Shown here one piece after another: positions 46,201 to 61,364 of a DNA stretch of 64,000 nt (positions are counted from its first letter, which is position 1; the number at the start of each line of letters is the position of its first letter). The notes beneath the pieces are model-generated. The model saw nothing but the letters and a program-made list of their open reading frames with translations. It ran no database searches and was not told the DNA's origin. The DNA comes from Myxococcales bacterium (GTDB lineage Bacteria > Myxococcota_A > UBA9042 > JABWCM01 > BTVJ01): positions 241,221 through 305,220 of the forward strand of contig BTVJ01000002.1 in NCBI GenBank assembly GCA_045863395.1, in the 5' to 3' direction. Made by a program: the position numbers and the translations under genes.

Positions 46201-48342
46201 GACGACGACTGTGACGGCGCCGTGGACGAGCCGGGTTCGAGTGGGTGCGCGACCCTGTACCGGGACAGGGACGGCGACGAGTGGGGCTCGGGCGCGCAGG
46301 TCAAGTGTCTGTGCGGTGCCATCGGAGACTACACCGCACTCAAGGGGGGCGACTGCAACGACCTGATTGCGGCGATCAATCCCGCTGCGGCCGAGGCGTG
46401 CAATGGCGTGGACGACGACTGCGACGGTCTGGTGGACGAGCAGGGGGCCACGGGCTGCACGGTGTTCTTCACGGACGTGGACCAGGACGGGTGGGGCCTC
46501 GATGGGTCGGGCAAGTGCCTGTGCTCCCCGTCGGGCAAGTCGACGGCGACGATGGCGGGAGACTGCAACGACACGGTGCCGAGCATCCACCCCGGAGGCA
46601 CCGAGGTGTGCAACCTGGCCGACGACGACTGCGACGGCCAGATCGACGAGGAGGCGGCGAGCGAGTGCGCGCCCTTCTACCGTGACGTGGACGAGGACGG
46701 CTGGGGCCAGAGCGGGGACAGCAAGTGCCTGTGCGGCGGAGATGGACAGTACACCGCGCTGGCGGCCGGTGACTGCAACGACGGCGACGCGGCGGTGAAT
46801 CCGGGCGCGGACGAAGCATGCAACGGCGTGGACGACGACTGCAGCGGAGGGGTGGACGAGCAGGACGCCCTCGGGTGCAAGCTGTGGTATCGAGACGACG
46901 ACGGGGACGGCTTCGGGGTGGCGCTGAGCCTGTGCCTGTGCGCAGCGTCGACGCCGTATACGGCGGCCTCGGGCACGGACTGCGACGACGAGGACGCCGC
47001 GGTGAACCCCGGGGCGGCGGAGGTCTGCAATGGGGTGGACGACGACTGTGACACGGACGTGGACGAGGAGGGGGCGAGCGGGTGCGAGACGCGATACGGG
47101 GACGCGGACGGGGATGGGTGGGGCGTCACCACGGACTCTCGATGTCTGTGTGCTGACGACGGGATCTACGATACGCAGGTCGGGGGAGACTGTGACGACG
47201 TCGCCCCGCAGGTGAACCCCGGCGCCACGGAGATCTGCGGCGGGGCAGACGAGGACTGTGACGGTGAGACGGACGAGGAGGGAGCCCAGGGGTGCAGCCT
47301 CTGGTATCGGGATGGCGACGGGGACTCGTGGGGTGGCGCCGAGGCCCCCCGCTGCCTCTGCGCAGCCAAGGGTGAGTGGGCGGCCACGGTGGACGGCGAC
47401 TGTGACGACGAGGAGCCTGCGGTCAATCCGGGTGCCACGGAGGTATGCAGCGGCGTCGACGACGACTGCGACGGCTTGGTCGACCCCGAAGGCGCGCAGG
47501 GCTGCGCCGACTGGTATCTCGACGTCGATGGAGACACGTGGGGCGCGGACGACGAGCGGTGTCTTTGTGGGGCGTCGGGTGAGTACAGCGCGACCGTGGC
47601 CGGAGACTGCGACGACCTGGAGGAGCTGGTGAACCCGGAGGCCGCGGAGGTCTGCAATGGCGTGGACGACGACTGCGATGGCGTCACCGATCCCGAGGGC
47701 GCGGGCGGGTGCGCGATGTGGCTCAAGGACGCGGACGCCGATGATTGGGGGCTGACGGACGACGGAAAGTGCCTGTGCGCCGCGACTGCGCCCTACACGG
47801 CGGCGGTTGGCGGCGACTGCGACGATGAGGTTGCGACCACGAACCCGGAAGCCGTCGAGGCCTGCGGCGGCGGCGACGAGGACTGCGATGGCCAGGTGGA
47901 CGAGGGAGCAGCGGAGGGCTGCACCGACTGGTTCGCGGACAAGGACGAGGACACCTACGGGGTAGACGGGACCGAGGTCTGCGCCTGTGGCCCGTCGGGA
48001 CACGAGACGGCTACGGTGGGCGGAGACTGCGATGACAGCAAGCCGCAGATCCATCCGGGCGCGCCCGAGGTGTGCAATGGCAAGGACGACAACTGCAACG
48101 GGCTCATCGATGAGGGCCCAGCCCAGGGCTGCACGGTCTGGTTCGCCGACATGGACAACGACGGATTCGGGCTCAATGGCTCCGAGCTCTGCGCATGTGG
48201 TCCGAATGGCGACCACACGGCGACGAAGGGGGGGGACTGCGACGACGGCAAGGACTGGGTCCACCCGGGGCTGCCGGAAGTGTGTGGCAATCTCGTGGAC
48301 GACAACTGCAACCAGCAGACCGATGAGGACTGCGGGCCCTGA
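43297..48342 (+). CDS. Giant lipoprotein of MopE-type and thrombospondin-3-like Asp/Cys repeats
   Basis: Lipobox LLGC; many E.CNG.DDDCDG..DE units; DTDGDGV.D..DNCP...NP.Q.D.D repeats. Confidence 0.9.
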   Translation: MERSRTWVHGLVALLALLGCEGPGAEGGADAVVAEVAGGGDGGAGDVADAGAAGDAGDAGNTADAGDGVPDAAGGDPCDSCPAGTACAEGPSGRTCVKVAELSCAECDDDAGCAAVGAVCTDEGRCALPCGAGCPAGLVCRPVGDGEACLPPSLTCSCVTENAGATRPCQRTTAHGTCEGVETCSPGAGWGGCDAPSAQPEQCNGLDDDCDGATDDVASRPCVRAAALGACPGTETCAGGQWSCDAPEASVEVCNGKDDDCDGVVDDDFPQLGKPCDGPDEDACPLGVWVCGATGVVCIDDAPQEELCNGKDDDCDGETDEGFGEVGAPCDGFDEDACANGVWTCLPTGLAAACVGDAPVVEVCNGKDDDCDGSVDEGFADTDGDGVANCVDPDDDGDGDPDVTDCAPGDAGIHHGATELCDGGDQDCDGVADNGYKDTDGDGVADCVDGDDDGDGVLDTDDNCPLVKNPKQEDWDLDGMGDACDPDDDNDGILDADDTCPFFPSPDQTDTDGDGFGDACDLDDDGDGVPDVADCEPTNGAIYQGAPELCNGMDDDCDGAVDEGHADADGDGVADCIDGDADGDGVPNDADCAPLDPTRHHLAMELCNGVDDDCDEAVDEGFADVDGDGAADCVDPDADGDGDPDESDCDPLDPTLHHNAGEICDGVDQDCDGSVDEGFADTDGDGVADCIDDDDDGDGVPDVFDNCPLAANQWQQDLDGDGVGDACDSDVDGDGDLNGSDCAPEVAAIWSGAVEKCNGWDDDCDGLVDEEGAAGCVDRAIDADSDGWGAGAPKCLCAAVGPYTATKLGDCDDGAATTHPGAPEVCNGVDDDCDGATDEPGAVGCKALWTDADGDGWGTGASQCRCGPAGLVKATKPGDCNDLNASIHPLAQETCNGADDDCDGAVDEAGASGCVALFEDGDGDGWGKPGTSQCLCKPTGVHKVAKGGDCDDGSAAVSPGAVEVCNGKDDDCDGAVDEPGSSGCATLYRDRDGDEWGSGAQVKCLCGAIGDYTALKGGDCNDLIAAINPAAAEACNGVDDDCDGLVDEQGATGCTVFFTDVDQDGWGLDGSGKCLCSPSGKSTATMAGDCNDTVPSIHPGGTEVCNLADDDCDGQIDEEAASECAPFYRDVDEDGWGQSGDSKCLCGGDGQYTALAAGDCNDGDAAVNPGADEACNGVDDDCSGGVDEQDALGCKLWYRDDDGDGFGVALSLCLCAASTPYTAASGTDCDDEDAAVNPGAAEVCNGVDDDCDTDVDEEGASGCETRYGDADGDGWGVTTDSRCLCADDGIYDTQVGGDCDDVAPQVNPGATEICGGADEDCDGETDEEGAQGCSLWYRDGDGDSWGGAEAPRCLCAAKGEWAATVDGDCDDEEPAVNPGATEVCSGVDDDCDGLVDPEGAQGCADWYLDVDGDTWGADDERCLCGASGEYSATVAGDCDDLEELVNPEAAEVCNGVDDDCDGVTDPEGAGGCAMWLKDADADDWGLTDDGKCLCAATAPYTAAVGGDCDDEVATTNPEAVEACGGGDEDCDGQVDEGAAEGCTDWFADKDEDTYGVDGTEVCACGPSGHETATVGGDCDDSKPQIHPGAPEVCNGKDDNCNGLIDEGPAQGCTVWFADMDNDGFGLNGSELCACGPNGDHTATKGGDCDDGKDWVHPGLPEVCGNLVDDNCNQQTDEDCGP

Positions 48343-49360: not shown

Positions 49361-50815
49361 GTGGCGAGCTACCTCTACCGCTATGAAGCGCGGGGAATCC
49401 AGCGGTGGATCCTTGCGACAGACGTCCTTCGAGACCTGAAGGGCGGAAGCGAGTGCGTCGAGCGCCTCGGAGAGCGTGCAGAGGCGCTCCTTGGAACGCT
49501 TGGCTGCGATGTGGAGCGACAGGTGACGACCGCGGGGGTTGGCCAGTATATTTTCCCCGCGTTCGAGCCATTGGCCCGGTTTTCTGCCCTCTGGCCCCTG
49601 GTGGTCGCCGTCGAAGCGCCGGGCCTGGAGCTGTCTCAGGCTTGGGTGGCCCTCTCGGGGAGCGGGCCGGCGGATGAGCAAGCCTACGGCGAGCTGGCTC
49701 GGCGCCTTGGAGTGGCTCCCCGAGGTGGGGACGTGCAGGTACCCGAAGCAGGGCCGCTGTCGGCCCGCTGCGGGCGGACGGGTATGCCGGCCGTCGGCTC
49801 GGAGCCTGTCGGCCCGTCGGCGCCCGAGCTGGTGGACGCCCCCACCGCGCGCAAGCGAAGGGAGTCGGGTGGCAAGCGTTTGGAAAAGCGCCTCTTCGGG
49901 GACCGGGCGCCTGTGATGGACGACGACCTCGATGGCTGGGGAGCGTCCGTCCTTGGAGTGGTCCACGCGGACGGGAACAACGTCGGGGAGGCGTTCCGCA
50001 CCGTTGCCGGGGGCAGGCGGAAGGAGGCATCGGACCAGTTGAGTCTTGCCACGGCGCGCGCCGTCGCGGGGGCTGTTCAGGACTTGCGTGACCGCGAGGG
50101 GACTCGGAGGCGGGGCCTCCGCGTGCGGCTCGTCGTGGTCGGCGGAGACGATGTGACCGCCATCGTGCCCGGCGAGCACGCGATCCCGTTCGCCGCGGCC
50201 TACCTGCGCCACTTCGAGGAAGCCGCGAGATCTGTCTTCGCCGCACCCCTGACCGCGGCGGCAGGGGTGGCGCTGGTCAAGACCCACTTCCCGTTCCACA
50301 TGGCCTATGGGCTCGCAGAGGAGCTGTGCGCCGAGGTGAAGGCTGCGTTCGGGCGGGGGGCGACTCCCCGGACCGCGTTGGCTTTTCACCGCGTGACCAC
50401 AGCGCAGCTCGACCCGTGGGATGACATCTCCGACCGGCTCGTCGCCAAGACGGGTGCGCGGCTCACCCGGCCAGCCTACTCGCTCGACGAGCTCCGTGAC
50501 CTGGACGAGCTGACGGCACTGTTCGACGGCGTGGTTGGCGAAGAGCGTGACGAGCGCCAGCGACTGCCGCGGGGTGCCGTGCGGGAGTGGCTGCGCCTGG
50601 CGGCGAACGACGCCGACCGGGCGGGTGGCCGCTGGAGACGGCTCTGCGAGGTCACGGGTGATGCGGTCCACGGCGCGCTGAGGGGGCGCCTGGAGGCGCT
50701 GGGCGCCGCGGTGGAGACCGGGCTCGGGAGGAGGGCCACCCCCGTGGGCGACGCGCTCTCGTGGGCCATGGTGCAGCGCCTGCGGCAGGGCGAGACGAGG
50801 AGGCTGTGGACATGA
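49361..50815 (+). CDS. cas10: Type III-D Cas10 (no HD domain, Palm GGDD intact)
   Basis: GIQRWILAT..LRDLKGGS, VVHADGNNVG, VVVGGDDV, AGVALVK.HFPF..AY.LAEEL; 484 aa. Confidence 0.92.
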   Translation: MASYLYRYEARGIQRWILATDVLRDLKGGSECVERLGERAEALLGTLGCDVERQVTTAGVGQYIFPAFEPLARFSALWPLVVAVEAPGLELSQAWVALSGSGPADEQAYGELARRLGVAPRGGDVQVPEAGPLSARCGRTGMPAVGSEPVGPSAPELVDAPTARKRRESGGKRLEKRLFGDRAPVMDDDLDGWGASVLGVVHADGNNVGEAFRTVAGGRRKEASDQLSLATARAVAGAVQDLRDREGTRRRGLRVRLVVVGGDDVTAIVPGEHAIPFAAAYLRHFEEAARSVFAAPLTAAAGVALVKTHFPFHMAYGLAEELCAEVKAAFGRGATPRTALAFHRVTTAQLDPWDDISDRLVAKTGARLTRPAYSLDELRDLDELTALFDGVVGEERDERQRLPRGAVREWLRLAANDADRAGGRWRRLCEVTGDAVHGALRGRLEALGAAVETGLGRRATPVGDALSWAMVQRLRQGETRRLWT

Positions 50816-51477
50816 GCGAGACCCTGGTCGACCGCACCCTGCGCGTCGCCTTCTCCAGCTTCTGGCTCTGCGGGTCCGGCCGTGGGGACGGCCCTGGCGC
50901 CGACGAGCTCCCCATCACCACCCGTGATGGGCTGCCCTTCGTGCCCGGAAAGACACTGCGCGGGGTGCTTCGGGACGCCTTCTCCCGGCTGGCAGGTCCG
51001 CAGTGCGACTCGGGCATTGGGGCGCAGGAACTGGTGAAGTGGTTTGGGTCGCCGCCCTGGGGCCCGGGAGCGCCGCCGGATGACGCGCACCGCGTGGAGC
51101 GCCTGGAGGCCGACCGGTATGCCACGACCCAGGGGCGGTTCGTCGTCGGGTCGGCCGTCCTCGGCCGCACCGAAGACGAGCGGGACCGGTGGCGCCGCTG
51201 GGCACAGCGCTCGAAGGACGCTGTGGCCCAAGCCTTCGTGGAGCTGTCGACCACGCGCATCAACGACGATGGAGTAGCCGACGACCAGACCCTGCGGACG
51301 GTGCGCGCCGTCATCCCCATGACGCTGTTTGCGGACGTCCGGCTCCCCGCGGAGGCCGCCGCGCCTCTCCGGGAAGCCGTGGTGGTCGCAAGCGCCATCG
51401 GGGTCGGCTCCGGCCGGCACCGGGGCTTCGGGCGCGTCTGCATCGACATCGAGCCGGCGGAGGGAGCCGATGCCTGA
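50812..51477 (+). CDS. cas7: Cas7-group RAMP (Csm3-like)
   Basis: GSG...AD.....DGLPFVPGKTLRGVLR; Gly-rich loop VGSGRHRGFG; ATGA coupling. Confidence 0.88.
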   Translation: MSETLVDRTLRVAFSSFWLCGSGRGDGPGADELPITTRDGLPFVPGKTLRGVLRDAFSRLAGPQCDSGIGAQELVKWFGSPPWGPGAPPDDAHRVERLEADRYATTQGRFVVGSAVLGRTEDERDRWRRWAQRSKDAVAQAFVELSTTRINDDGVADDQTLRTVRAVIPMTLFADVRLPAEAAAPLREAVVVASAIGVGSGRHRGFGRVCIDIEPAEGADA

Positions 51478-52960
51478 GCTCAACCTTTCACTCCGGCTTC
51501 TCACGGACGTGGCCTTCACCGCGGACAGCGCCACCATCGGGCGCCACGAGACCCTTCGGTACGTGCCGGGCGCTGCCCTGCTCGGGGCTGTGGCTGGGAT
51601 GCTGTACCGCGAGCTCTCGAGCGAGGACTCCTGGCGCATCTTCCATACCAGCGCGGTCCGCTTCGGCTGTGCGCGCCTGGCGGCGGGGGCGTTCTCCGCC
51701 GTCCCGCTTCCTCTCTCGCTGCACCGCCTGAAGGTGGACGCCGCGACGGGCCGTGCCCCCTCTTGGTGGGATCGGGACGACGGAGTGCAGCTCCTCGGTG
51801 AGGCCGCGCTCAACCTGGCGGTGGCACCGCGGGGCCCTGGCCTCAAGCAGCTCCGCTCCACGGAGTTTCTGGGGTCGGGTCTGGAGCGCCGGACGCCCCA
51901 GACGCACTTCAGCATGCGGACGGCCATCCACGAGGGGACGGGGCGTGCGCGAGACGGCTACCTGTTCTCGCTGGAGGCGCTGTGCGCGGGACAGGTCTTT
52001 CGGTGCGCGGTGCGCTGCGACCAGGAGCCGGACCGCAAGCTGCTGGAGCAGACGCTCCACGGGCGGCGCCTCCGCCTCGGACGCTCACGCTCCTCCGAGT
52101 TCGGGTCAGTGGAGGTCACCGTCGAGGAAGGAGAGCTCCGGCCGTGCCTCGATCCAGGGGACGGGGCGGCGACGACCGTCTCGGTGCTCCTGCTCTCGGA
52201 CATGATGCTCCGCGACGGCGCGGGCCAGGTGCGGACCGTGCCGGTCGCGGCGGACTTCGGGTTCCCCGGGGACTGGGCCCTTGCGGCCGACCGCACGTTC
52301 ATCCTCACGCGCAGATACTCGCCCTACAACGCCACGCGGAGGCGCCACGACGCCGAGCGCCACGTGCTGGCGATGGGCTCGGTGCTCACCTTTGCCGGGT
52401 CGTCGCCGTGGCCTCTGGAGCGTGTTCGCGCGGTGACGCGCGACGGCGTCGGGCTGCACCGCAACGAGGGGCTCGGCGAGGTGCTGGTGGCCCCTGCGAT
52501 GCTCGGAGTGGAACGGCCGGCGGTCCTGCGTGAGCGGCCGAAGGCGGAGACCGCGGACGCGGAGACTCTCGACGATTCACTCGCGCGCTGGCTGGAGGCA
52601 CGCGCCGCGGCAGAGGCGGACGCAGACCGCCGGACCACGGCACTGCTGGGGTACGCGAAGGCTCTGGGGCGCTTCATTGGGCGCTCCCAGTGGGGCCAGC
52701 TCCGCGCCTTTGCGGTGGGCGCGCTGCGGCACCCCACGACGGACGCCGAGCTGCGCCGGGCTCTGACGAACCACCTGACAGCAGACCAGGCGCAGCTCTC
52801 CCACCGGTGGGGGAGGCGCATCGAGCGCGGTGTGACCGTCGCCGATACCGTGGTCCGTGCGCTCGGCGCGGGTGTTCCACCAGGCGAGGGAAGCTCCGCC
52901 GAGGCGGCCGCCTGGCTGCTCGATCTGGCTACCCAGGCCATGCGGACCAAGGAGGCTTGA
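51470..52960 (+). CDS. Cas5-group RAMP (Csx10-like) with C-terminal Cas11-like helical domain
   Basis: TLRYVPGAALLG, RLGRSRSSEFG, GVGLHRNEGLGEV; helical C-terminus with RSQWGQLR. Confidence 0.8.
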   Translation: MPELNLSLRLLTDVAFTADSATIGRHETLRYVPGAALLGAVAGMLYRELSSEDSWRIFHTSAVRFGCARLAAGAFSAVPLPLSLHRLKVDAATGRAPSWWDRDDGVQLLGEAALNLAVAPRGPGLKQLRSTEFLGSGLERRTPQTHFSMRTAIHEGTGRARDGYLFSLEALCAGQVFRCAVRCDQEPDRKLLEQTLHGRRLRLGRSRSSEFGSVEVTVEEGELRPCLDPGDGAATTVSVLLLSDMMLRDGAGQVRTVPVAADFGFPGDWALAADRTFILTRRYSPYNATRRRHDAERHVLAMGSVLTFAGSSPWPLERVRAVTRDGVGLHRNEGLGEVLVAPAMLGVERPAVLRERPKAETADAETLDDSLARWLEARAAAEADADRRTTALLGYAKALGRFIGRSQWGQLRAFAVGALRHPTTDAELRRALTNHLTADQAQLSHRWGRRIERGVTVADTVVRALGAGVPPGEGSSAEAAAWLLDLATQAMRTKEA

Positions 52961-52963
52961 CCC

Positions 52964-54490
52964 ATGAAGGGGCTCCGCTTCGATCTCGCGCGCGTGACCA
53001 TCGAGTTCACCTCCCCGTTTCGCGTCTCCGGCCAGGAGCACCGGGGCTCCCCCTGGGACGCCGCCTTCTTCGTGGACGTGCACGGGGTCCCGCTGCTGCC
53101 GGCCACGTCCCTGGTCGGCGTGCTGCGGCACGCCTACGCCGCCTCCCTGGGGGAGCCCGCCGACTCGGGCCCCCGGGTCACGGCGCTCTTCGGCTTTCAG
53201 AGAGGGACCGACGGGCAGGACTCGCGGGTATCCGCCAGCTTCGGGCAGGCGGTCGGGCGAGACGGAGTAGCCTCTGGCCTGCCCGTGGGCCCTGGGGCGA
53301 GCGAAGAGCCGGATCCGGTCCTCGCGTTGCTTCGTGAGGGGGTGCTCCGGGACCACGTGGCCCTGTCTCACCGCGGCGTGGCAGACGACCGCAAGAAGTT
53401 CGACGAGCTGCTGGTGCCCGCAGGCGCCCGCTTCGTGTTCGACCTGAGGGTCGACGGCGACGGCGACGACCTCGACACGCTGCTCGACCTGCTTGCTGGC
53501 CCGGCCACGCGCCTCGGTGGAGCCACGCGGCGCGGCCTCGGGGAGTTCAAGGTGGTCGGCGTGAGGCGGCGACGCTTCGACCTCGCCAAGGCGGAGGATC
53601 GGGCTGCGGCCAGGGCCGTGCTGGGAGACCTCGCGGACGTCGTTGCCGTGAGTGTGCTCCCCGATGTGCCGCTCCCCGGCGCCGAGTCCGGCGGGTGGGT
53701 GACCCTCGATCTGCATCTGCGCGCCGAGGACTACTGGATGATCGGTGGCGGGCACCCCCATCGCGACGACCACCGCGCCAAGAAGCGAAAGGTGGAGCGC
53801 GGCGAAGAGCGCAAGGTGCGGACCGAGGACGCCTGGGTAGACCGGGTCCCCGTGTCCGAGCAGGAGATCGTGTGGGAGAAGCAGGGAAGCCGGGAGGTGC
53901 CGCGCGTGCTGGCCGCCAAAGACTCGCCGTACCTGTTGGCCGGGAGCAGCATCAAGGGGGCGCTGCGGCACCGCGCGACGTTCCACCATCGTCGCGCGAC
54001 CGGACAGGTGGTGGAGCTTCGCGACGACCTCCTCGCCGCCGTGCCGGCGAGTCTCAAGGAGAGCGCGGTCCGGCTGGCAGCGACGGACCCGATGGACGCC
54101 CTGTTCGGGTCGGTCAAGGCCCGGGTGGATGGCGAGGGGGCTCGGGGTCAGGCAGGGCTGGTGTTCATCGAGGACGTGCGCGTGTCGAACGCAAAGGTCG
54201 GGCGCCTCGACCACGTGAGCCTCGACCGCTTCACCATGGGCCCCATGGACGGCCTCCTGTTCAGCGAGGCTCCGCTCTACGGGGGCGAGGTCGAGGTGCG
54301 GATTCGCATCGCAGATCGCGACGACACTCCCCGGGTGGCCCGCCAGGCCCTCGAGGCGGCGCTCGATGACCTGTGCGCGGGACGCCTGGCCCTTGGCGCG
54401 CACGCGTCCCGTGGGCTGGGGTGCTTTCGGGGGCCCGCGGAGCTGCCGTGGAGCGACGGGGGGCGCTGGATCGCCGGAGGTGACGCATGA
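52964..54490 (+). CDS. Double Cas7 RAMP (Cas7-Cas7)
   Basis: Two RAMP units: PLLPATSLVGVLR...LGGATRRGLG and LAGSSIKGALRHR...LGAHASRGLG. Confidence 0.88.
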   Translation: MKGLRFDLARVTIEFTSPFRVSGQEHRGSPWDAAFFVDVHGVPLLPATSLVGVLRHAYAASLGEPADSGPRVTALFGFQRGTDGQDSRVSASFGQAVGRDGVASGLPVGPGASEEPDPVLALLREGVLRDHVALSHRGVADDRKKFDELLVPAGARFVFDLRVDGDGDDLDTLLDLLAGPATRLGGATRRGLGEFKVVGVRRRRFDLAKAEDRAAARAVLGDLADVVAVSVLPDVPLPGAESGGWVTLDLHLRAEDYWMIGGGHPHRDDHRAKKRKVERGEERKVRTEDAWVDRVPVSEQEIVWEKQGSREVPRVLAAKDSPYLLAGSSIKGALRHRATFHHRRATGQVVELRDDLLAAVPASLKESAVRLAATDPMDALFGSVKARVDGEGARGQAGLVFIEDVRVSNAKVGRLDHVSLDRFTMGPMDGLLFSEAPLYGGEVEVRIRIADRDDTPRVARQALEAALDDLCAGRLALGAHASRGLGCFRGPAELPWSDGGRWIAGGDA

Positions 54491-54945
54491 ACGCAGCCGA
54501 AGCCTTGGAGCTGCTCCCGAAGGAACTCCGAGAGGGCGCACGCGCGTGCTCGCTGGACGTGGAGACTGCAGGGGCCGTGGAGGTGGGCGCTGTGATTGCC
54601 GCCTTCCAGGGCCTCCGCGGGGTCGCGACCTGCACGGGCGAGGTCGTCGAGTTCCTTGCGGGGCTTCCGGGGCCGGATCGTCTGCTCTCGGCCGAGGGCG
54701 TGAGCCCCGACGGGAGCCGCAGCGCCAAGGTCTGGCACGACGGGGACTCCTATCACCTGGTCACGGTGCGGGAGGTGGATGGCCGCGACCACCTGCGCCG
54801 GGACGTGACGCACCCGGGGGTCCGTCGGGGACTCTCCCTCACCTACGCAGAGTATTGGGCCCCCACTCCCGAAGGTGACCCGCCCGTAGGTGTGTGGCGT
54901 CCCTTCGCCTCGCGCCTGGTCTCCGTACAGGAGGGCACCCCATGA
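54487..54945 (+). CDS. csx19: Csx19-like small subunit
   Basis: Position between the double Cas7 and the Cas7-insertion gene; C-terminal LTYAEYW...ASRL pattern. Confidence 0.65.
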   Translation: MNAAEALELLPKELREGARACSLDVETAGAVEVGAVIAAFQGLRGVATCTGEVVEFLAGLPGPDRLLSAEGVSPDGSRSAKVWHDGDSYHLVTVREVDGRDHLRRDVTHPGVRRGLSLTYAEYWAPTPEGDPPVGVWRPFASRLVSVQEGTP

Positions 54946-57362
54946 GCTTCGAGCACACCGCAGGGTACGGGTTCGTTCCCCTCTCTCACTTCGCGTTCTG
55001 TCCCTCGTGGGCGGCGGCGGTTTCGCAGGACATCCCCTTCGCGGACGGGCTCTCCGGCACCCTGGAGTTGGAGCTGAGCGCGCAGTCGCCGCTGTTCGTG
55101 CGGGCGGCGGGGACGGACGAGGACCCTTCCCGCCCCAGGGCCTTCCAGCTCCCGGGTGGTGGTTACGCCGTGCCTGGCGGTACGGTGCGCGGCATGCTCC
55201 GCTCCATCGTGGAGACCGCGGCCTTCGGGTATCTCTCGCGGGTCAACGACCACAAGTATGCCGTGCGGGATCTGCGCAACCGGACGCTCTACGGCGACCA
55301 CATGGCGGGCATCATGCCGCGCGTGAACGGGAAGCCCGAGCCCATGCCCAAGGTCGGGGCGGGGTGGCTCGTAAAAGACCGTGGCAACGCGGACAAGGCG
55401 TGGGTTCGTGGCGAATGTGAGCCAGGTGAGGTGGTCGCCCGCATTGAGCCTTGCAGCTTTGCCAAGGTGGAATATTCGTACCTGGTGCGCCTCGCAGAGC
55501 AGGTGAGGGGCCGCTTCGACCCCGGAGCTCGCCAGGGCGCCCCGCGGAAGTACGCTGCGTGGAGCGATCTTCGACTGTCTCTGACGCAGACCTTCAACGT
55601 GGAGCTGCTGCGCGACCATGGTCGCCTGAGCGGCGTCCTTGGGGCGGCTGCCAGGCAACGGCAGCTCGGCCACTACGGCCGCGTCTCGTCCATCCCGGGC
55701 AAGGAGCAGGGCACGTTGGTGTTCACGGGGCAGCCGTCGCCCTACCGTCCCAACGCCGGCCCGAAGCGCAAGGGGGCCGGGAACCCGAAGCACCACGACT
55801 TCATGTTCTGGGATCTCCCCGGTGCGTCGTCCATCCCCGTCTCGTGGAAGCAGTTCCAGGAGTTCGAGTTCATCCACAGCGACCGGGGCCAGCAGAACAA
55901 CCTGGGCCGCTCCGAGTCGCCCAATGACGAGTGGAAGCACTGGCTCAAAGAGAAGTGGGACAACGACGACGTGCCCCTCGGGGAGGAGCGCATCCCGGTC
56001 TTCTACCTCTTCGATGACCGGGCCCAGGTGCCCACTCTCCGCGCTTTCGGACTCGCCATGATGTTCCGGCTGGCCTACCGCAACTCGGTGCGGGACGCCA
56101 TCAAGTCCGTCCAGGGTGAGCATGTCTTCGAGCCCATCTCGGGAGAGCCCGGCCACGGTCGCCAGCCGGACTTCGCGGAGACCCTCTTCGGTTACGCGTC
56201 CGAGTCCCGCGCCAAGACCCAGACTGCGCAGGCACTGAAGGGCAGGGTCTCCGTCGGCACCTTCACCGCGGCTCCCGGCACGGTCAAGGTGCTGCCTCCG
56301 GTGACCGCCGTGCTCGCCGGCCCGAAGGCCAGCTACTATCCGAACTACATCGAGCAGAGCGAGCAGGGGCCACCCGGGGCGCCCCCGGCGCGGGGCATCT
56401 ACCGCACGTTCATGGACGACAAGCCGCAGGTCCGCGGTAGGAAGCGCTACCGCTCGACCACCGAGGTGCTCCGACCGCCGCTGCCACGGGGAGGGCAGGG
56501 GCAGGAGATCGACACCGGCCGCGTCGCGACGACGTTCTCCCCGCTCGCGCCAGGCGCCTGCTTCACGGGGCGCATCCGGGTCCACAACCTGCTCCCGGTG
56601 GAGCTGGGGGCGCTGCTCTGGGCCCTGGACTTCGGCGGCGACGCGACGTGCCTCCACAAGCTCGGCCTCGCCAAGGCCCTCGGCTACGGCCAGGTCAGGC
56701 TCGCGGTGCGGGGGGCGGAGCTCCTGGGACTGAGCGGCCCGGTGGACGCAACTGCGGTGATGGCGAATGCCCGCGCGTCTTTTGAGCGGCTCATGGAGGC
56801 GGCCTGTGCCCGGGGCGGCGTCCCAGGCGGCTGGGCGGGCTCGGCACAGATCGCGGAGCTGCGCGCCCTGGCGCGCCCCGTGGCGTCGGCGCAGGCCCGC
56901 ACGTTCTTGCTGAACAATGGCGACTCGGACCCGCGAATGCGCAACGAGTTCGAGCGCGCCAAGGCGGAGCGAACGGCGCTTCCTTCGGCTACGGACTGGT
57001 CCCGGCACCCGGGGGGGCCTCCACCCCTGACGAGAGTGCGTCAGGAGGCGGGCATCAAGACTACACCAGCGCAACAGTCTGTAGCGGAGCCTCCGCCAGC
57101 GCCTGTGTCCGATGACCGCAAGCCTGCCGTCCAGGTCACACAGGCGTCACTGCCAGCAGCACCCAACTTCGCGCGTGACCTGTTCAACCTCCAGCCCGGA
57201 ACGGCCGCGCAGCTCCTGCCCCGACTGATCGAGCGGTGGACTGGCACAGAGCACCAGCCGCGTTTACGCGACGCCCTTCGAGCCCACCCCAACTACCCTT
57301 GGCTCAAGAAGCAGCTCGACAAGCGCTGGGCACAGGGGCTGCGCGAACTGCTCGACCTCTGA
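54942..57362 (+). CDS. Cas7 with large insertion (type III-D), plus a C-terminal extension
   Basis: YGFVPL, SGTLEL...SPLFV, VPGGTVRGMLRS, DFAETLFG, KGRV, RGRKRY, HNL.P.ELGALL, KLGLAKALGYG. Confidence 0.9.
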   Translation: MSFEHTAGYGFVPLSHFAFCPSWAAAVSQDIPFADGLSGTLELELSAQSPLFVRAAGTDEDPSRPRAFQLPGGGYAVPGGTVRGMLRSIVETAAFGYLSRVNDHKYAVRDLRNRTLYGDHMAGIMPRVNGKPEPMPKVGAGWLVKDRGNADKAWVRGECEPGEVVARIEPCSFAKVEYSYLVRLAEQVRGRFDPGARQGAPRKYAAWSDLRLSLTQTFNVELLRDHGRLSGVLGAAARQRQLGHYGRVSSIPGKEQGTLVFTGQPSPYRPNAGPKRKGAGNPKHHDFMFWDLPGASSIPVSWKQFQEFEFIHSDRGQQNNLGRSESPNDEWKHWLKEKWDNDDVPLGEERIPVFYLFDDRAQVPTLRAFGLAMMFRLAYRNSVRDAIKSVQGEHVFEPISGEPGHGRQPDFAETLFGYASESRAKTQTAQALKGRVSVGTFTAAPGTVKVLPPVTAVLAGPKASYYPNYIEQSEQGPPGAPPARGIYRTFMDDKPQVRGRKRYRSTTEVLRPPLPRGGQGQEIDTGRVATTFSPLAPGACFTGRIRVHNLLPVELGALLWALDFGGDATCLHKLGLAKALGYGQVRLAVRGAELLGLSGPVDATAVMANARASFERLMEAACARGGVPGGWAGSAQIAELRALARPVASAQARTFLLNNGDSDPRMRNEFERAKAERTALPSATDWSRHPGGPPPLTRVRQEAGIKTTPAQQSVAEPPPAPVSDDRKPAVQVTQASLPAAPNFARDLFNLQPGTAAQLLPRLIERWTGTEHQPRLRDALRAHPNYPWLKKQLDKRWAQGLRELLDL

Positions 57363-57374
57363 CAGGAGAGACCG

Positions 57375-58757
57375 GTGCTCGACTCCATCTATATACGCAA
57401 CTTCAAGGCATTCAGCGGCGAGCACCCGTTCAAGCTCGCTCCCCTCACCTTCGTCGTAGGCGCCAACTCGACGGGAAAGTCGACGATCCTTCAGTCGCTG
57501 CTGGTCTTGCGCCAGAGCTGGCGTGAGTTTGACGACCTTCCTTTGGACCTACGCACCGAGGGCGCGCTCACCTCTCTCGGGCGACCTCGCAACGTCGTCA
57601 GTGGCCAACAACAGGACGTCCTGGAGCTGGGCTTCGGTATGCCAGGAGCGTCTGTAGTCTTCGGCTATGACTTCACCGGATCCAGCCTCGAGGCGCGCGG
57701 TCAGGCGCTTACGCACGTGCGTCTTGGCAAACCCACTGATGCCACATTCCTCCGCGCCGATGTCGATTGTGCTCAGGACGCGCAGTTCACGCTTTTGGTT
57801 CACGACGCGCGACGGGATGGTGCCCGAGAGATCACCCAGTCTGGGGCTGAAGATTCACGGCGGGTACTCCGCTACACCCTGAGCGAGGGGCAGTGGTCTA
57901 CCCCAGATCGCCACAATGCCAATCCACTGATTCGTGACGCTATCAAGCAGCACGTCGACAATGCGCGGCGAGCACTGAACGAGGTCCAGTATGTAGGACC
58001 GCTCCGTGCCACAGCGCAGCGACATTACTCCGTGCGCAAGCGCACGGGGCCCCGCGTCGGAGTCACGGGAGATCGGTTCGTCTCGTTGCTCCTTCACTCC
58101 CCAGAGGTTCTCAAGCGGGTGAACGACGCGCTGCGAGGCCTTGAGTTGCCCTACGTCGTCGACGTCTTGGACCTGGGAGGTACGGCTCCCTTGGGAGAAC
58201 TCCAGCTCAGGGTGCTCACGCCTGACTACCGCGAACGGTCAGAGCCTCTCGTTGTCGGTCTGCCGGACGTCGGCTGTGGGCTGAGCCAGCTCTTGCCAGT
58301 CCTCACACAGCTCGCAGCGGCGGAGGCTGATCGGGAGACGAAGGACAAGGCGTTTGGCCACACAGTCCTCCTTGAGCAGCCAGAGCTTCACCTTCACCCT
58401 CGGGCACAGGTACAGCTTGGATCGTTCTTCGCTGAACTCGTCTCACGGGACAGGCAGCGAGCCTCATACCCGGAGGAGGGTGCGGCGAACCGCGAGGATT
58501 CGAGCGGCCAGGACACTCGGACGATGGCGCTTCGGCGGAGGAACCAAATCATATGCGAGACCCACAGCGAGCACCTGATCAATCAGGTGCGTGGCGAGGT
58601 GGCCCACGGAAGGATCCAGGCTCGCGACGTTACATTTCTGAATGTCCATCAAAGGCACGGAGCACCTGAGGTCACTGAGATCCCTCTTAGTTCGACCGGA
58701 GAGTTCCAGGAAGTCTGGCCCGATGGTTTTTTTGCCACTTCAGGAAGGAGGACCTGA
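57375..58757 (+). CDS. ABC/AAA_21-type ATPase with DUF3696-like C-terminus
   Basis: IRNFKAF, Walker A GANSTGKS, DVGCGLSQLLP, LLEQPELHLHP, ETHSEH, terminal WPDGFF; AGGAGA RBS before GTG. Confidence 0.9.
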   Translation: MLDSIYIRNFKAFSGEHPFKLAPLTFVVGANSTGKSTILQSLLVLRQSWREFDDLPLDLRTEGALTSLGRPRNVVSGQQQDVLELGFGMPGASVVFGYDFTGSSLEARGQALTHVRLGKPTDATFLRADVDCAQDAQFTLLVHDARRDGAREITQSGAEDSRRVLRYTLSEGQWSTPDRHNANPLIRDAIKQHVDNARRALNEVQYVGPLRATAQRHYSVRKRTGPRVGVTGDRFVSLLLHSPEVLKRVNDALRGLELPYVVDVLDLGGTAPLGELQLRVLTPDYRERSEPLVVGLPDVGCGLSQLLPVLTQLAAAEADRETKDKAFGHTVLLEQPELHLHPRAQVQLGSFFAELVSRDRQRASYPEEGAANREDSSGQDTRTMALRRRNQIICETHSEHLINQVRGEVAHGRIQARDVTFLNVHQRHGAPEVTEIPLSSTGEFQEVWPDGFFATSGRRT

Positions 58758-58758
58758 G

Positions 58759-59745
58759 ATGCTCGTGCGACTGTGTGCCGAGCCCAAGGCCCTGATCGAC
58801 TTCCTTGGCATGGTCAGCCCACCCGATCTGCAGAGCGGGCTTGCGGACTGGGTTTTGAACCGAGCCCTATGGTGCTATGATGGATCGAACCCGCGCGTGC
58901 ACAAAGCGGCGTCAATTCGCACGGTTCTCGATGACCATCAGGGTAGCTATATAGACGCGATTCGAAGTCGCCTCGACGCTGAGCCGCTCCCCGCGGTACC
59001 TTCAGGAGAGCGCGTCCTGCAGACTCACCAGGAGGTCGCGTCGTGGTACAGGCACACCCTGCTACGAAGCCACACGGCTGCTGAGTACATCGACCCGTCT
59101 GAGGCCAGGCGGGATCTTTCCGACTTCGTAGAGCACTGCCCAGTTCGAACCATCACGGATCGGTACCTCTTCAAGAACAATCAGGTACCCGAGGCGATTC
59201 GTTGGCTCGCGATAGGCACCGGAACACAGTTGATCATACGGACGGCGTTGTGCGGAAACTGGCGGGAGCTTCGAGACTCTAAGCAGACGTCCAGGCTTCC
59301 GGCATTCGCCAAATCGGCGTGGGATGCTGCTGTACGGACCTTGACGGATTGCGTTGCTGGACGCGTTACCATCAGAATGGCACAGCTGCTGCGCTCCGAG
59401 TCCTTTCATGCGCGTACCCTTATGCTGGGCGTCCCTGAGAAGCCATGGCGCTATGCACTTTTCGTTGACCCCGGTTTTGATGCGCTGTTGCGATCTGGTG
59501 ACAAGCGCCATGCGAGGGTGGGTTGGGCGGTACCACGCGACGTCGTTCACACAACCGGAGACGGCGAACTCACACATGAACTTTGCATGAAGTGGGATGA
59601 GGGCGCGCCCGGTCCCATCGCCGCCGTCAGAGTCCGGCGAGACGGCCGATCTCACACCTACAACAGCGGGGATGTGGACGGCAACCTCTGGGTCCGCGCC
59701 GTCGAGGACATGCTCGGGACCCGCAAGCTGGAGAGGGAGTGGTGA
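58759..59745 (+). CDS. Hypothetical protein with PLD-like (MIT_C-type) motifs
   Basis: AGGAGG RBS; ITDRYL, FHARTLML and VDPGFD resemble the IxDPY / HDRxI / GxGLD pattern. Confidence 0.6.
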   Translation: MLVRLCAEPKALIDFLGMVSPPDLQSGLADWVLNRALWCYDGSNPRVHKAASIRTVLDDHQGSYIDAIRSRLDAEPLPAVPSGERVLQTHQEVASWYRHTLLRSHTAAEYIDPSEARRDLSDFVEHCPVRTITDRYLFKNNQVPEAIRWLAIGTGTQLIIRTALCGNWRELRDSKQTSRLPAFAKSAWDAAVRTLTDCVAGRVTIRMAQLLRSESFHARTLMLGVPEKPWRYALFVDPGFDALLRSGDKRHARVGWAVPRDVVHTTGDGELTHELCMKWDEGAPGPIAAVRVRRDGRSHTYNSGDVDGNLWVRAVEDMLGTRKLEREW

Positions 59746-61364
59746 TGCGTGCGCTCCATGTCTTCTACACCCTCGGCGTGAAGCCGCAGCGGGCACTCTA
59801 CGTCCCGGCGCACGACCATGAGGCGGCGGCCTCGGCGCAGAAGTTTGCGCTCACCGCGCTCCTCGACATGGGCTGGCCCGTGCCCACGGGGCGCTTGGCT
59901 GGGGCGAGCTTTCACCTTCTCCCGACGGCGGAGCTCTTCGAGCCGATCGAGCCCACGTCGCGATGCGTTTGCCCGGCGCCCCCGGAGGCCCCGTCGCCCG
60001 TTGAGCAGCTCCTCGGTGAGCTCGCCGAGGTCAGCGAAGGAGCCGCAGCGACAGCGAGGCGCGACGCCGAGGAGCAGCGCAGGAGTCCCCTCAACCAGCG
60101 CGACGTACGGACCATCTGGACCATCGTGGATCGCCTGATGGACACGGTGCGGGATGGCGATGACGTGCTCATCGAGGCGACCAACGGGATCCGGTCGATC
60201 TCCCTCGGGATCCTGCTGGGTGCGGGTCTCCTGCGCGCTCACCGGCCCAAGGTCAACGTGCTTGCCGTGACCTACGCCGAGTTCGGCGCTGCCAGTCTCC
60301 CCGAGAAGTGGAGTGGTCGTGCCGGAGAAATCGAGCGTGCCAGCCCCGTCCACGACCTCCGCCCCTTCTTCGATCTCTTCGACTGGTCACACGCCTCGCG
60401 CCAGCTCACCGAGACTCTGGACTCCCGGCGTATCGCGGCACTCCTGCAGCGCGATTGGGGTGGTGCCGCGGCCGCAAGTGACATTCCTACTCGGGTGGCC
60501 GAGCTTGGGGACGCCCTGGCGATCAACTGGCCGTCCAAGGTCGTCGGTGCCTGGCAGGCCTTTCAGGAGTCGGTCGTGCGGTCGTCCGGCGAGGAGCTGC
60601 GCCAGAGAAGCCCCGCCGCAGCCATCGTGCTCGACCACGCGCAGCGGGACCTGTCCACGCTGGCGTTCGCCGCAGCCGCCCGCACTGAGGAACTCACTGA
60701 GGAGAGGCTCCACTTCGACTTGCGCCTCATCGAGCGGCTCCACCAGGTGGGCCGCGAGGGGGACGCCATCCGGGGGCTCCGGGAGTGGTTCGTCAACGCG
60801 GTCCTGCTGGCGTCGGGGAGCGCGGACACCTGGCTCGAGGGGCCTGTGCGAGCGCGGGCCGAGGCAGCGCTGCATCGGGACACGAATGACGTCGGGCGGC
60901 GCTGGAAGGTGGTGGGCCGGGTCCGCAACGCTGCCTCCCACCTCGGCTACAACGAGAAGCACGATCCTACCCCCGAGAGTGTGACCGGGGTGCTGCACGA
61001 CGCTCTCGGTGAGCTGACCCAATGGATGACGGACCCAGAGTGGACCGCCCGGTTCGCGTTGACACGCCAGGGCGAGGTCTGGGTCACCGACCAGTTCCAC
61101 CCGGCGATGCTGAGCGGCGGCGCGGCGTTCAACGTGCGGGTCACGCGGGTCAAGGCGGACGAGGTGCGGTTGCGGTTGGGCGATGACTTTCGGGTAGCCA
61201 TCAGCGACGACGCGACCAAAGCAGAAGTCCAGAAGGTGTGTGGGCGAGAGGTCGTCTCCGAGGGTGCCGCAGGCCTGCGGTTGACGGTAGGGACGGCTGT
61301 CGTGGTCGCTGGCCCCCATGCACCGAGCCACAAACATCGGTGGCACCTCGTGGAGGTCGGGTAG
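59745..61364 (+). CDS. csx1: Csx1-like CARF-HEPN ribonuclease with C-terminal DUF1874/Crn2-like domain
   Basis: CARF VLIEATNGIRS, PVHDLRPFFDLFDW; HEPN RNAASH; extra ~95-aa C-terminal domain; TGATG coupling. Confidence 0.8.
   Translation: MRALHVFYTLGVKPQRALYVPAHDHEAAASAQKFALTALLDMGWPVPTGRLAGASFHLLPTAELFEPIEPTSRCVCPAPPEAPSPVEQLLGELAEVSEGAAATARRDAEEQRRSPLNQRDVRTIWTIVDRLMDTVRDGDDVLIEATNGIRSISLGILLGAGLLRAHRPKVNVLAVTYAEFGAASLPEKWSGRAGEIERASPVHDLRPFFDLFDWSHASRQLTETLDSRRIAALLQRDWGGAAAASDIPTRVAELGDALAINWPSKVVGAWQAFQESVVRSSGEELRQRSPAAAIVLDHAQRDLSTLAFAAAARTEELTEERLHFDLRLIERLHQVGREGDAIRGLREWFVNAVLLASGSADTWLEGPVRARAEAALHRDTNDVGRRWKVVGRVRNAASHLGYNEKHDPTPESVTGVLHDALGELTQWMTDPEWTARFALTRQGEVWVTDQFHPAMLSGGAAFNVRVTRVKADEVRLRLGDDFRVAISDDATKAEVQKVCGREVVSEGAAGLRLTVGTAVVVAGPHAPSHKHRWHLVEVG

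What the first reader, a model, noticed from the sequence alone, without database searches (positions are those of the whole stretch)
59745..61364. Csx1 fused to a catalytically degenerate Crn2/AcrIII-1-like domain
Seen: CARF and an intact HEPN (RNAASH), then from ~61074 VWVTDQFHPAML...VRVTRV...VAISDDAT..VQKVCG...LRL..G..VVV. By eye this follows the DUF1874 ring-nuclease pattern (YLxNAFSxNML...SIGHxST...LCG...NR..I.L). Known: Csx1-Crn2 fusions exist (Marinitoga piezophila) and rely on GH, NR and RE motifs. Here GH reads SD (61203-61208) and NR and RE appear absent. Inference: the off-switch is lost or repurposed as a binding/sensor domain, giving an unrestrained or differently regulated RNase.
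Basis: partly seen in the sequence, partly recalled or inferred. Interest (0 to 1): 0.72.

Follow-up and report, generated by a model that had tools for sequence, protein, structure and literature searches.

The report
CRISPR RNase with dead off-switch domain
This bacterial anti-virus RNA-cutting enzyme is fused to a module that normally destroys the alarm signal, but here the module has lost almost all its signal-gripping and cutting residues, so it is predicted to be inactive and likely kept only to hold the enzyme together while other genes in the genome likely clear the signal.

Summary
Observation confirmed. 59745-61364 (+) encodes a 539-aa Csx1 (CARF motif TNGIR, HEPN RNAASH) at the end of a type III-D operon. 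Its last 98 residues are a true Crn2/AcrIII-1 homologue. The closest relatives carry intact Crn2 in the same place. An HMM built from them scores this domain 17.9 bits (best of 1000 shuffles 10.7). The model matches AcrIII-1 structures (Z 11.5-13.3, next 3.2). Of nine AcrIII-1 cA4-contact or catalytic side chains only T50 is kept: H47 is D, R66 is G, N8 and S11 are changed, and the lid loop is shortened by about 11 aa. So the domain most likely neither cleaves nor binds cA4, which argues against the 'sensor' reading. The hydrophobic core and the predicted dimer strand persist, and in Marinitoga the Crn2 domain builds the tetramer needed for full RNase activity. Best reading: a pseudo-ring-nuclease kept as a scaffold. 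'Unrestrained' is doubtful, because the genome also encodes an intact-looking Crn3 and a Csx1-Csx20 fusion. A second, independent loss with a similar lid deletion exists (fragment P0027; AU p=0.003). I found no natural dead Crn2 in the papers searched. New variant of a known kind; moderate interest.

The parts
59745..61364 (+). csx1 fused to a degenerate crn2; 539 aa (CARF-HTH-HEPN plus Crn2-like domain)
   Evidence: full-length model's best PDB match is Marinitoga Csx1-Crn2 8Y7G, E 5e-14
60180..60194 (+). CARF motif II TNGIR (aa 146-150); TxGxR pattern, R150 in the position of Marinitoga R132
   Evidence: motif matched by eye
60924..60941 (+). HEPN R-X4-H motif RNAASH (aa 394-399), intact
   Evidence: R394, N395, H399 invariant in 13 rows
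61068..61364 (+). Crn2/AcrIII-1-like domain (aa 442-539), predicted catalytically dead
61089..61109 (+). DQFHPAM in place of NAFSxNM (N8 to D449, A9 to Q450, S11 to H452, N13 to A454)
61119..61148 (+). second strand and preceding loop (aa 459-468); core of the predicted homodimer interface
   Evidence: matches the beta2-beta2 Crn2 dimer described in PMC11317161
61203..61208 (+). SD in place of GH (catalytic H47 to D488)
   Evidence: H in 16 of 16 intact rows
61263..61265 (+). G507 in place of the invariant R66
   Evidence: R in 16 of 16 intact rows
61308..61328 (+). shortened lid loop (about 11 residues missing; no Q81, R85 or E88 equivalent in the preferred register)
49361..50815 (+). Cas10, type III-D, 484 aa, GGDD intact, no HD-domain hit; signal source
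50797..57362 (+). type III-D interference genes: Cas7, Cas5/Csx10, Cas7-Cas7, a 152-aa gene with no family hit (Csx19 position), Cas7 with insertion (TIGR03986)
57375..59745 (+). AAA_15/AAA_21 ATPase plus a gene with no family hit; low-GC3, strain-variable cassette between the cas genes and csx1

Best explanation
The protein is a Csx1 ribonuclease, likely activated by cA4, fused to a Crn2-derived domain that has lost its cA4-cutting and cA4-gripping residues and is likely kept as the dimerising module that would assemble the active tetramer. Shown here: homology to Crn2, descent from intact Csx1-Crn2 fusions, loss of 8 of 9 listed contact or catalytic side chains, a shortened lid, a retained hydrophobic pattern, and other ring-nuclease genes in the genome. 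Inferred steps: (1) Cas10 makes cA4 on finding target RNA. (2) cA4 binds the CARF dimer and switches on the HEPN site. (3) The dead domains pair across two Csx1 dimers, as in Marinitoga, and stabilise HEPN. (4) With no local high-affinity sink for cA4, the RNase would switch on at lower cA4 and stay on longer than an intact fusion. (5) cA4 would be cleared in trans by Crn3 (contig C42) and the Csx20 fusion (contig C86), which would have removed selection on the fused catalytic site.
For: Homology and descent. In the Csx1-only tree P0001 is sister to 8 proteins, 7 of them with intact Crn2 (support 91/97). Loss of the site: the window keeps 5 of 20 conserved polar/Gly/Pro columns, against 16-20 of 20 in each of 16 intact rows. 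Among intact pairs the domain is more conserved than the Csx1 core (46% vs 37% mean identity); for the window it is less (23% vs 37%). Each of N451A, H495A, R514A and E536A markedly lowers activity in Marinitoga (PMC11317161), H47A costs more than 2500-fold (10.1101/778746), and the bulky S452Y blocks binding (PMC7293037). Fold kept: 23 of 31 aligned hydrophobic columns stay hydrophobic against 44% by composition (p 6e-4); no stop or frameshift; GC3 0.83, like the rest of the gene; model pLDDT 89.8; VIA Z 11.5-13.3, rmsd 1.9-2.5 A over 94-96 residues to four AcrIII-1/Crn2 chains, next hit 3.2. Homodimer score 0.68 vs best control 0.01; that mark was reached by 20 of 30 solved homodimers and 1 of 23 monomers; runs share at least 87% of contacts, pLDDT at least 81; interface centred on strand 2. 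Structural need: removing Crn2 turns tetramer into dimer/monomer and lowers RNase activity more than 10-fold. Back-up switches: Crn3 with residues at the spacing of H57, H60, D69, R71 and (one off) H80, and Csx20 above the NCBIfam cut-off; Csx20 proteins degrade cA4. Parallel case: P0027 lost the same motifs and lid independently.
Against: The fold and dimer predictions used an alignment of intact Crn2 domains and like complexes are solved, so they may show likeness rather than this copy's behaviour. In the full-length model, built on a different register, the domain had pLDDT of only 38-65. The hydrophobic-retention count depends on an alignment that favours such matches. No close orthologue exists for a dN/dS test, so purifying selection on the fold is not shown. 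Three close relatives have other, short tails after HEPN (P0005, P0007, P0013; some may be truncated: P0005's cluster holds a 610-aa member), and 18 carry a different tail, so this Csx1 clade does not always need Crn2. The tetramer role comes from one distant enzyme (12% identity). A strain in run X8 shows 11 amino-acid changes in CARF residues 1-69, including E63K (one contig, depth 5.7), which could mean loosened constraint on the whole gene. The Crn3 and Csx20 genes lie on other contigs of an assembly with 3.46% contamination, and Crn3 scores 53.6 bits, just under the 55.4 cut-off. Nothing was assayed.
Confidence: 0.58

Rival explanations
1. The domain is a functionless relic that is decaying after another ring nuclease took over; the Csx1 part works, or is itself decaying, without it.
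For: The domain has diverged faster than the rest (23% vs 37%). No orthologue with the same residues was found. P0027 shares only 19% identity in the domain. Related Csx1s swap or lack the tail. CARF changes are seen in strain X8.
Against: After about 75% divergence there is still no stop, frameshift or truncation; the hydrophobic pattern and codon bias are kept; the main deletion falls in the mobile lid in two independent lineages; the domain is unchanged in strain X8 while other parts of the gene vary (weak, likely recombination patches).
Confidence: 0.22
2. The domain has been repurposed as a sensor or binder of another ligand (metal ion, another nucleotide, or a protein) that tunes the RNase allosterically through the tetramer.
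For: It has five histidines against 1-3 in intact domains. H452, H525, H529 and H534 lie in the predicted dimer interface, and D449, D488 and D489 are at the former pocket. A viral DUF1874 protein has a second, protein-binding function (10.1101/2023.01.10.523387, passages).
Against: No second sequence shares these residues; P0027 lacks the His cluster. No ligand is suggested by the locus. I could not inspect side-chain geometry.
Confidence: 0.11
3. The domain still binds cA4 without cutting it and acts as a sponge or buffer.
For: The H495A mutant of Marinitoga Crn2 still binds cA4 at 20-60 nM, so loss of the histidine alone would give a sponge. T50, F10 and M14 are kept.
Against: The binding residues are lost too (N8, S11, N13, R66, Q81, R85), acidic residues replace N8 and H47, and the lid that buries cA4 is shortened. 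One bulky substitution next to N451 already blocks binding in the characterised enzyme.
Confidence: 0.05
4. The domain is still a slow ring nuclease that uses relocated residues, for example a histidine from the remodelled loop, possibly with a metal.
For: New histidines lie near the interface; one alignment puts H525 in the R85 column; Crn3 uses His/Mn chemistry on an unrelated fold.
Against: All positions shown to matter by mutagenesis are changed, and no basic residue remains at R66 or R85 to hold the phosphates.
Confidence: 0.04

Closest known systems
Csx1-Crn2 fusion of Marinitoga piezophila / Marinitoga sp. (PDB 8Y6Z, 8Y7F, 8Y7G; PMC7293037, PMC11317161)
   Same: Same domain order CARF-HTH-HEPN-Crn2; TxGxR and R-X4-H motifs; best fold match of the full-length model; predicted strand-2 dimer of the C-terminal domain.
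   Different: The residues equivalent to N451, H495, R514, R533 and E536 are changed or missing and the lid is shortened. About 12% identity; a separate, GC-rich Csx1 clade (TNG instead of THG). Sits in a III-D locus rather than III-B.
AcrIII-1 / DUF1874 (PF08960): SIRV1 gp29 (2X4I, 6SCF), STIV B116 (2J85), AFV3-109 (2J6B)
   Same: Fold by prediction (Foldseek E 9e-7, TM 0.8; Z 12-13); remnant F..M, T50, G and W positions.
   Different: No Pfam hit, no GH, R66 or R85; fused and chromosomal; no phage match by tblastn.
Uncharacterised intact Csx1-Crn2 clade (P0002-4, P0006, P0008-12, P0014, P0018, P0140; loci L007-L009, records titled Polyangiales or delta proteobacterium)
   Same: Direct relatives, 31-43% identical in the Csx1 part and collinear to the C-terminus; L008 and L009 lie beside type III-B Cmr genes.
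   Different: They keep H47, R66, Q81 and R85 in 16 of 16 aligned domains (15 fused, 1 stand-alone); 8 of 16 lack E88.
Csx1 fused to Csx20, Csx16, Csx3/Crn3 or a second CARF (PADLOC CARF2 models)
   Same: Same Csx1 core with a C-terminal regulator slot.
   Different: The window's tail does not match those models.

Membership tests
Csx1 (CARF-HEPN ribonuclease) | N-terminal CARF domain with TxGxR motif II | tested here: met
   PADLOC hits; TNGIR at aa 146-150
Csx1 (CARF-HEPN ribonuclease) | HEPN R-X4-6-H motif | tested here: met
   RNAASH at aa 394-399
Csx1 (CARF-HEPN ribonuclease) | Linked to a type III locus with a cyclase-competent Cas10 | tested here: met
   Cas10 with GGDD at 49361-50815 on the same strand, 9 kb upstream
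Csx1 (CARF-HEPN ribonuclease) | cA4-activated RNase activity | not testable with these tools
   needs an assay; cA4 is inferred from the family and from the ancestral Crn2 fusion
Crn2 / AcrIII-1 (DUF1874) homology group | Sequence homology to DUF1874 proteins | tested here: met
   clade HMM 17.9 bits vs 10.7 best shuffle; collinear with PF08960-positive relatives; no direct Pfam hit
Crn2 / AcrIII-1 (DUF1874) homology group | DUF1874 fold | tested here: met
   predicted model, Z 11.5-13.3 vs next 3.2; model guided by an alignment of intact domains
Crn2 / AcrIII-1 (DUF1874) homology group | Homodimer through strand 2 | tested here: inconclusive
   score 0.68 vs control 0.01, but like complexes are solved, so it may pass from memory
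Crn2 as an active ring nuclease | Catalytic His (H47/H495) in the GH motif | tested here: not met
   S487-D488
Crn2 as an active ring nuclease | Phosphate-binding N8, S11, N13, R66, Q81 | tested here: not met
   D449, H452, A454, G507, gap
Crn2 as an active ring nuclease | Mobile lid with R85 and E88 | tested here: not met
   about 11 residues shorter in the preferred register; an alternative register keeps an Arg but removes two core strands
Crn2 as an active ring nuclease | Degrades cA4 to A2>P | not testable with these tools
   needs an assay
Csx16 / Csx20 / Crn3 ring nucleases | Profile match of the C-terminal domain | tested here: not met
   no PADLOC hit at E 0.1 for the domain alone; control tail HMMs at most 3.6 bits

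The most novel reading that the evidence does not exclude
Csx1-Crn2 fusions have repeatedly turned a captured viral anti-CRISPR into a pseudo-enzyme: intact site, then E88-less forms, then fully dead forms with the lid deleted. Losing cA4 binding along with catalysis would be selected because a dead but still binding domain would starve the CARF sensor. The result is a lower-threshold RNase that keeps the Crn2 tetramer scaffold and hands the off-switch to other loci. In this lineage the emptied pocket, now rich in His and Asp, may have become a new allosteric site.
Probability: 0.3. Interest if true: 0.65.

Novelty: new variant of a known kind. Interest (0 to 1): 0.44.

Why it matters
It separates by natural experiment the two jobs of the Crn2 domain, destroying cA4 and building the tetramer, and gives a ready test of whether ring nucleases set the activation threshold or end the response. 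It also warns annotators both ways: the domain escapes Pfam and PADLOC, and a Csx1-Crn2 architecture does not imply a self-limiting enzyme. The effect is confined to type III CRISPR regulation and rests on one full-length gene plus one fragment.

Tried and rejected
Direct searches with the protein or domain found no Crn2 signal: Pfam, PDB sequences, PF08960 in the own genome, word-indexed search of aa 400-539 (self only), ESM Atlas (best 0.80, CapK_C on 15% of members; below the usable range and rejected), NCBIfam MamC E 0.022 (rejected as chance), phage tblastn. The domain alone against 151 fetched proteins was not significant, though the three best rows were Crn2 tails (E 0.12-1.2). P0111 first looked degenerate (33 bits) but has GH, R and RLPEG, so it was counted as intact, YddF/Marinitoga type, and left out of the 16-row counts. 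Frameshift or assembly artefact was rejected. The register placing GLRLTVG on GPRLTVG (alignments A2, A3) was not preferred: it deletes two core strands and gave pLDDT 38-65 against 89.8. RNA-library contigs cover the gene, but contigs cannot show transcription, so expression is not claimed. No CRISPR array lies in the window. The large tree is a quick tree; the 23-row careful tree was used. The Makarova 2020 CARF classification paper and the journal version of the AcrIII-1 paper were not in the library, and no supplements were read; any of these may list H47-less homologues.
Full report
Locus. The finding is the last cas gene of a type III-D operon on the + strand: Cas10 (49361-50815, 484 aa, GGDD present, no HD-domain hit), Cas7, Cas5/Csx10, Cas7-Cas7, a 152-aa gene without family hit, and Cas7 with insertion. 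Then come an AAA ATPase and an unknown gene, then the 539-aa ORF at 59745-61364. There is no array in the window; arrays lie on contigs C64, C78, C99 and C126 of the same assembly. The genome is 97.39% complete with 3.46% contamination.

The Csx1 part. Residues 117-407 match Csx1/CARF2 CARF-HEPN profiles (best E 2e-26). Motif II reads TNGIR and HEPN reads RNAASH. The TxGxR arginine and the R-X4-H motif are the residues that Zhang et al. show are needed in Marinitoga Csx1-Crn2 (PMC11317161; I read the abstract, two of three parts of Results and the Discussion). By eye E63 and F180 stand where that enzyme has E59 and Y164. Motif I differs (LGVKP vs LGKG), but it varies across the whole clade. 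The full-length model's best structural match is 8Y7G (E 5e-14).

The C-terminal domain is Crn2-derived. It has no Pfam or PADLOC hit of its own. The word-indexed search returned two relatives, both with PF08960 at the C-terminus, collinear with the window's tail. The exhaustive search listed 150 of 359 hits; 13 of the 150 carry a Crn2 with GH and both arginines. An HMM of 11 of these domains, without the window, scores aa 442-539 at 17.9 bits, against a best of 10.7 in 1000 shuffles and 0.2 for the reversed sequence. Four HMMs from other Csx1 tails give at most 3.6 bits. With a domain alignment of 19 rows the model has pLDDT 89.8 and matches only AcrIII-1/Crn2 chains: Foldseek E 9e-7, TM about 0.8; VIA Z 13.3, 12.3, 11.8 and 11.5 with rmsd 1.9-2.5 A over 94-96 residues, next 3.2. 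This model leans on the intact rows, so the sequence evidence is the independent part. In a careful tree of the Csx1 part alone (23 rows; 21 fetched proteins of the wider set were used only in the quick tree), the window is sister to eight proteins of which seven have intact Crn2 (support 91/97). The degenerate state is therefore derived.

What is lost. The AcrIII-1 preprint (10.1101/778746, passages) lists side-chain contacts from N8, S11, N13, S49, T50, R66, Q81 and R85, with H47 as general acid. Mapped through 2X4I and the alignment, the window has D449, H452, A454, A490, T491, G507, a gap, a gap or H525, and D488: 1 of 9 kept. In the 16 intact rows (P0111 and P0027 left out), H47, R66, Q81 and R85 are present in 16 of 16. 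The window keeps 5 of 20 conserved polar/Gly/Pro columns; the intact rows keep 16-20 each. The lid is about 11 residues shorter. Single substitutions at N451, H495, R514 or E536 markedly reduce activity in Marinitoga, and S452Y blocks binding (PMC7293037, passages and section 18). S452 directly follows N451, so it maps to Q450 by register or H452 by function, bulky either way. The domain therefore most likely neither cuts nor holds cA4.

What is kept. There is no stop or frameshift, and GC3 is 0.83 against 0.83-0.85 in the rest of the gene. 23 of 31 aligned hydrophobic columns stay hydrophobic (44% expected by composition, p 6e-4; alignment-dependent). The domain is predicted to form a homodimer: score 0.68, best control 0.01, a mark reached by 20 of 30 solved homodimers and 1 of 23 monomers; contacts agree at least 87% between runs, pLDDT at least 81; the interface centres on aa 459-468. 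This is the strand-2 interface described for Crn2. Because such dimers are solved, the pass may be from memory. The sequence is real: run X2 spans the gene in one contig with one change in the domain (G479S), X8 covers the domain unchanged, and X6 and X10 cover it little or not at all.

Why keep it. In Marinitoga the Crn2 domains join two Csx1 dimers into a tetramer. Removing them gives dimer and monomer, destabilises HEPN and lowers RNase activity more than 10-fold. Crn2 binds cA4 more tightly than CARF (about 20-60 nM vs 0.3-1.6 uM), and catalytic mutants show prolonged RNA cleavage. A domain that lost both catalysis and binding would keep the scaffold and remove the sink. This step is inference from one distant enzyme.

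Is the RNase unrestrained? The genome has three Cas10 genes, all with GGDD. The III-D locus on C42 holds a stand-alone Csx3/Crn3 (PADLOC E 5e-19; NCBIfam 53.6 bits vs cut-off 55.4). Its His, His, Asp and Arg have the exact spacing of A. fulgidus H57, H60, D69 and R71, with a His one position off H80 (PMC7371418 passages). C86 encodes a Csx1-Csx20 fusion (above cut-off); Csx20 proteins degrade cA4, and ring nucleases are suggested to act in trans between loci (10.1101/2024.09.24.614671, parts 1-3 of 4). C56 encodes a further Csx1 with a CARF-like tail and C78 a lone 244-aa CARF protein. cA4 is diffusible (general knowledge), so the cell probably still has an off-switch. Their activity, expression and correct binning are untested.

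A second case. P0027, a 251-aa fragment, has lost N8, S11, N13, H47, R66, Q81 and the lid while keeping 25 of 33 hydrophobic columns. It is 19% identical to the window's domain and nests among intact proteins; the AU test rejects grouping it with the window (p 0.003; it fills only 34% of columns). So loss with lid deletion happened at least twice among about 18 known relatives. No genomic context was obtained for it.

Against the reading. No orthologue allows a selection test. Related Csx1s carry other tails or short ones. One strain contig shows 11 changes in CARF residues 1-69, including E63K. The five histidines in the domain, four of them at the predicted interface, leave room for a new ligand site, but nothing else supports that.

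Novelty. Five library searches (terms around Crn2, AcrIII-1, DUF1874, degenerate, inactivated, pseudoenzyme) and passages of PMC8284326, PMC7969007 and 10.1101/2023.01.10.523387 showed no description of a naturally dead Crn2 domain. The AcrIII-1 preprint notes only that sequences with a mutated H47 were removed from its alignment, so such homologues were seen but not discussed there. The Makarova 2020 paper was not available and supplements were not read. Verdict: a real, new variant of the Csx1-Crn2 fusion, best read as a pseudo-ring-nuclease scaffold; interest 0.44.

Noticed in passing
P0015-17, P0019-26, P0028, P0031, P0032, P0035, P0036, P0040, P0053; also L002 and L003: 18 related Csx1 proteins, forming their own branch, carry an unnamed C-terminal domain of roughly 100-150 aa (recurring G..W and a terminal W....PLF pattern) in the slot where others have Crn2, Csx20, Crn3 or CARF. 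No PADLOC hit on the tail for the 4 tested, no Atlas hit for 1 tested, no match to Crn2. Candidate new regulator or ring nuclease.
   Followed up: partly
window 57375-59745: An AAA_15/AAA_21 ATPase (PADLOC NsnB E 3e-49, PDC-M55A E 1e-40) and a 328-aa gene with no family hit sit inside the III-D operon. GC3 is 0.69 against about 0.85 around them, and a contig in run X7 has diverged sequence there, so this looks like a variable defence cassette.
   Followed up: partly
alignment A4: 8 of 16 otherwise intact Crn2 domains lack the E88 equivalent (RLPVG, RLPLG, RLPAG, RLTVG), which may give slower ring nucleases.
   Followed up: no
window 59745-59950 in run X8: A strain contig has 23 base differences giving 11 amino-acid changes in CARF residues 1-69 (K13Q, E63K among them) and a second patch at 60883-60902, with near-identity elsewhere; it looks like recombination patches or fast change in the sensor's N-terminus.
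   Followed up: partly
L015:6604-8564 (G000 C78): A lone 244-aa CARF7-type protein followed by a Mem_01 membrane protein, beside the 99-repeat array and the III-B locus.
   Followed up: no
L018:12223-14827 (G000 C64): E1-E2, JAB and E2 ubiquitin-like conjugation genes lie close to a CRISPR array and cas1/cas2-like genes (cas names by eye).
   Followed up: no
L004/L010 (G159 C374:4176-4499): A stand-alone intact Crn2 in a 123-aa open frame, the only one in 401 sampled genomes of the phylum; neighbours not annotated.
   Followed up: partly
window 43297-48342, about 37900-39200 and 14100-16700: Large Cys/Asp-rich repeat proteins (about 210-bp and 150-170-bp units); they account for nearly all repeats in the window.
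   Followed up: no
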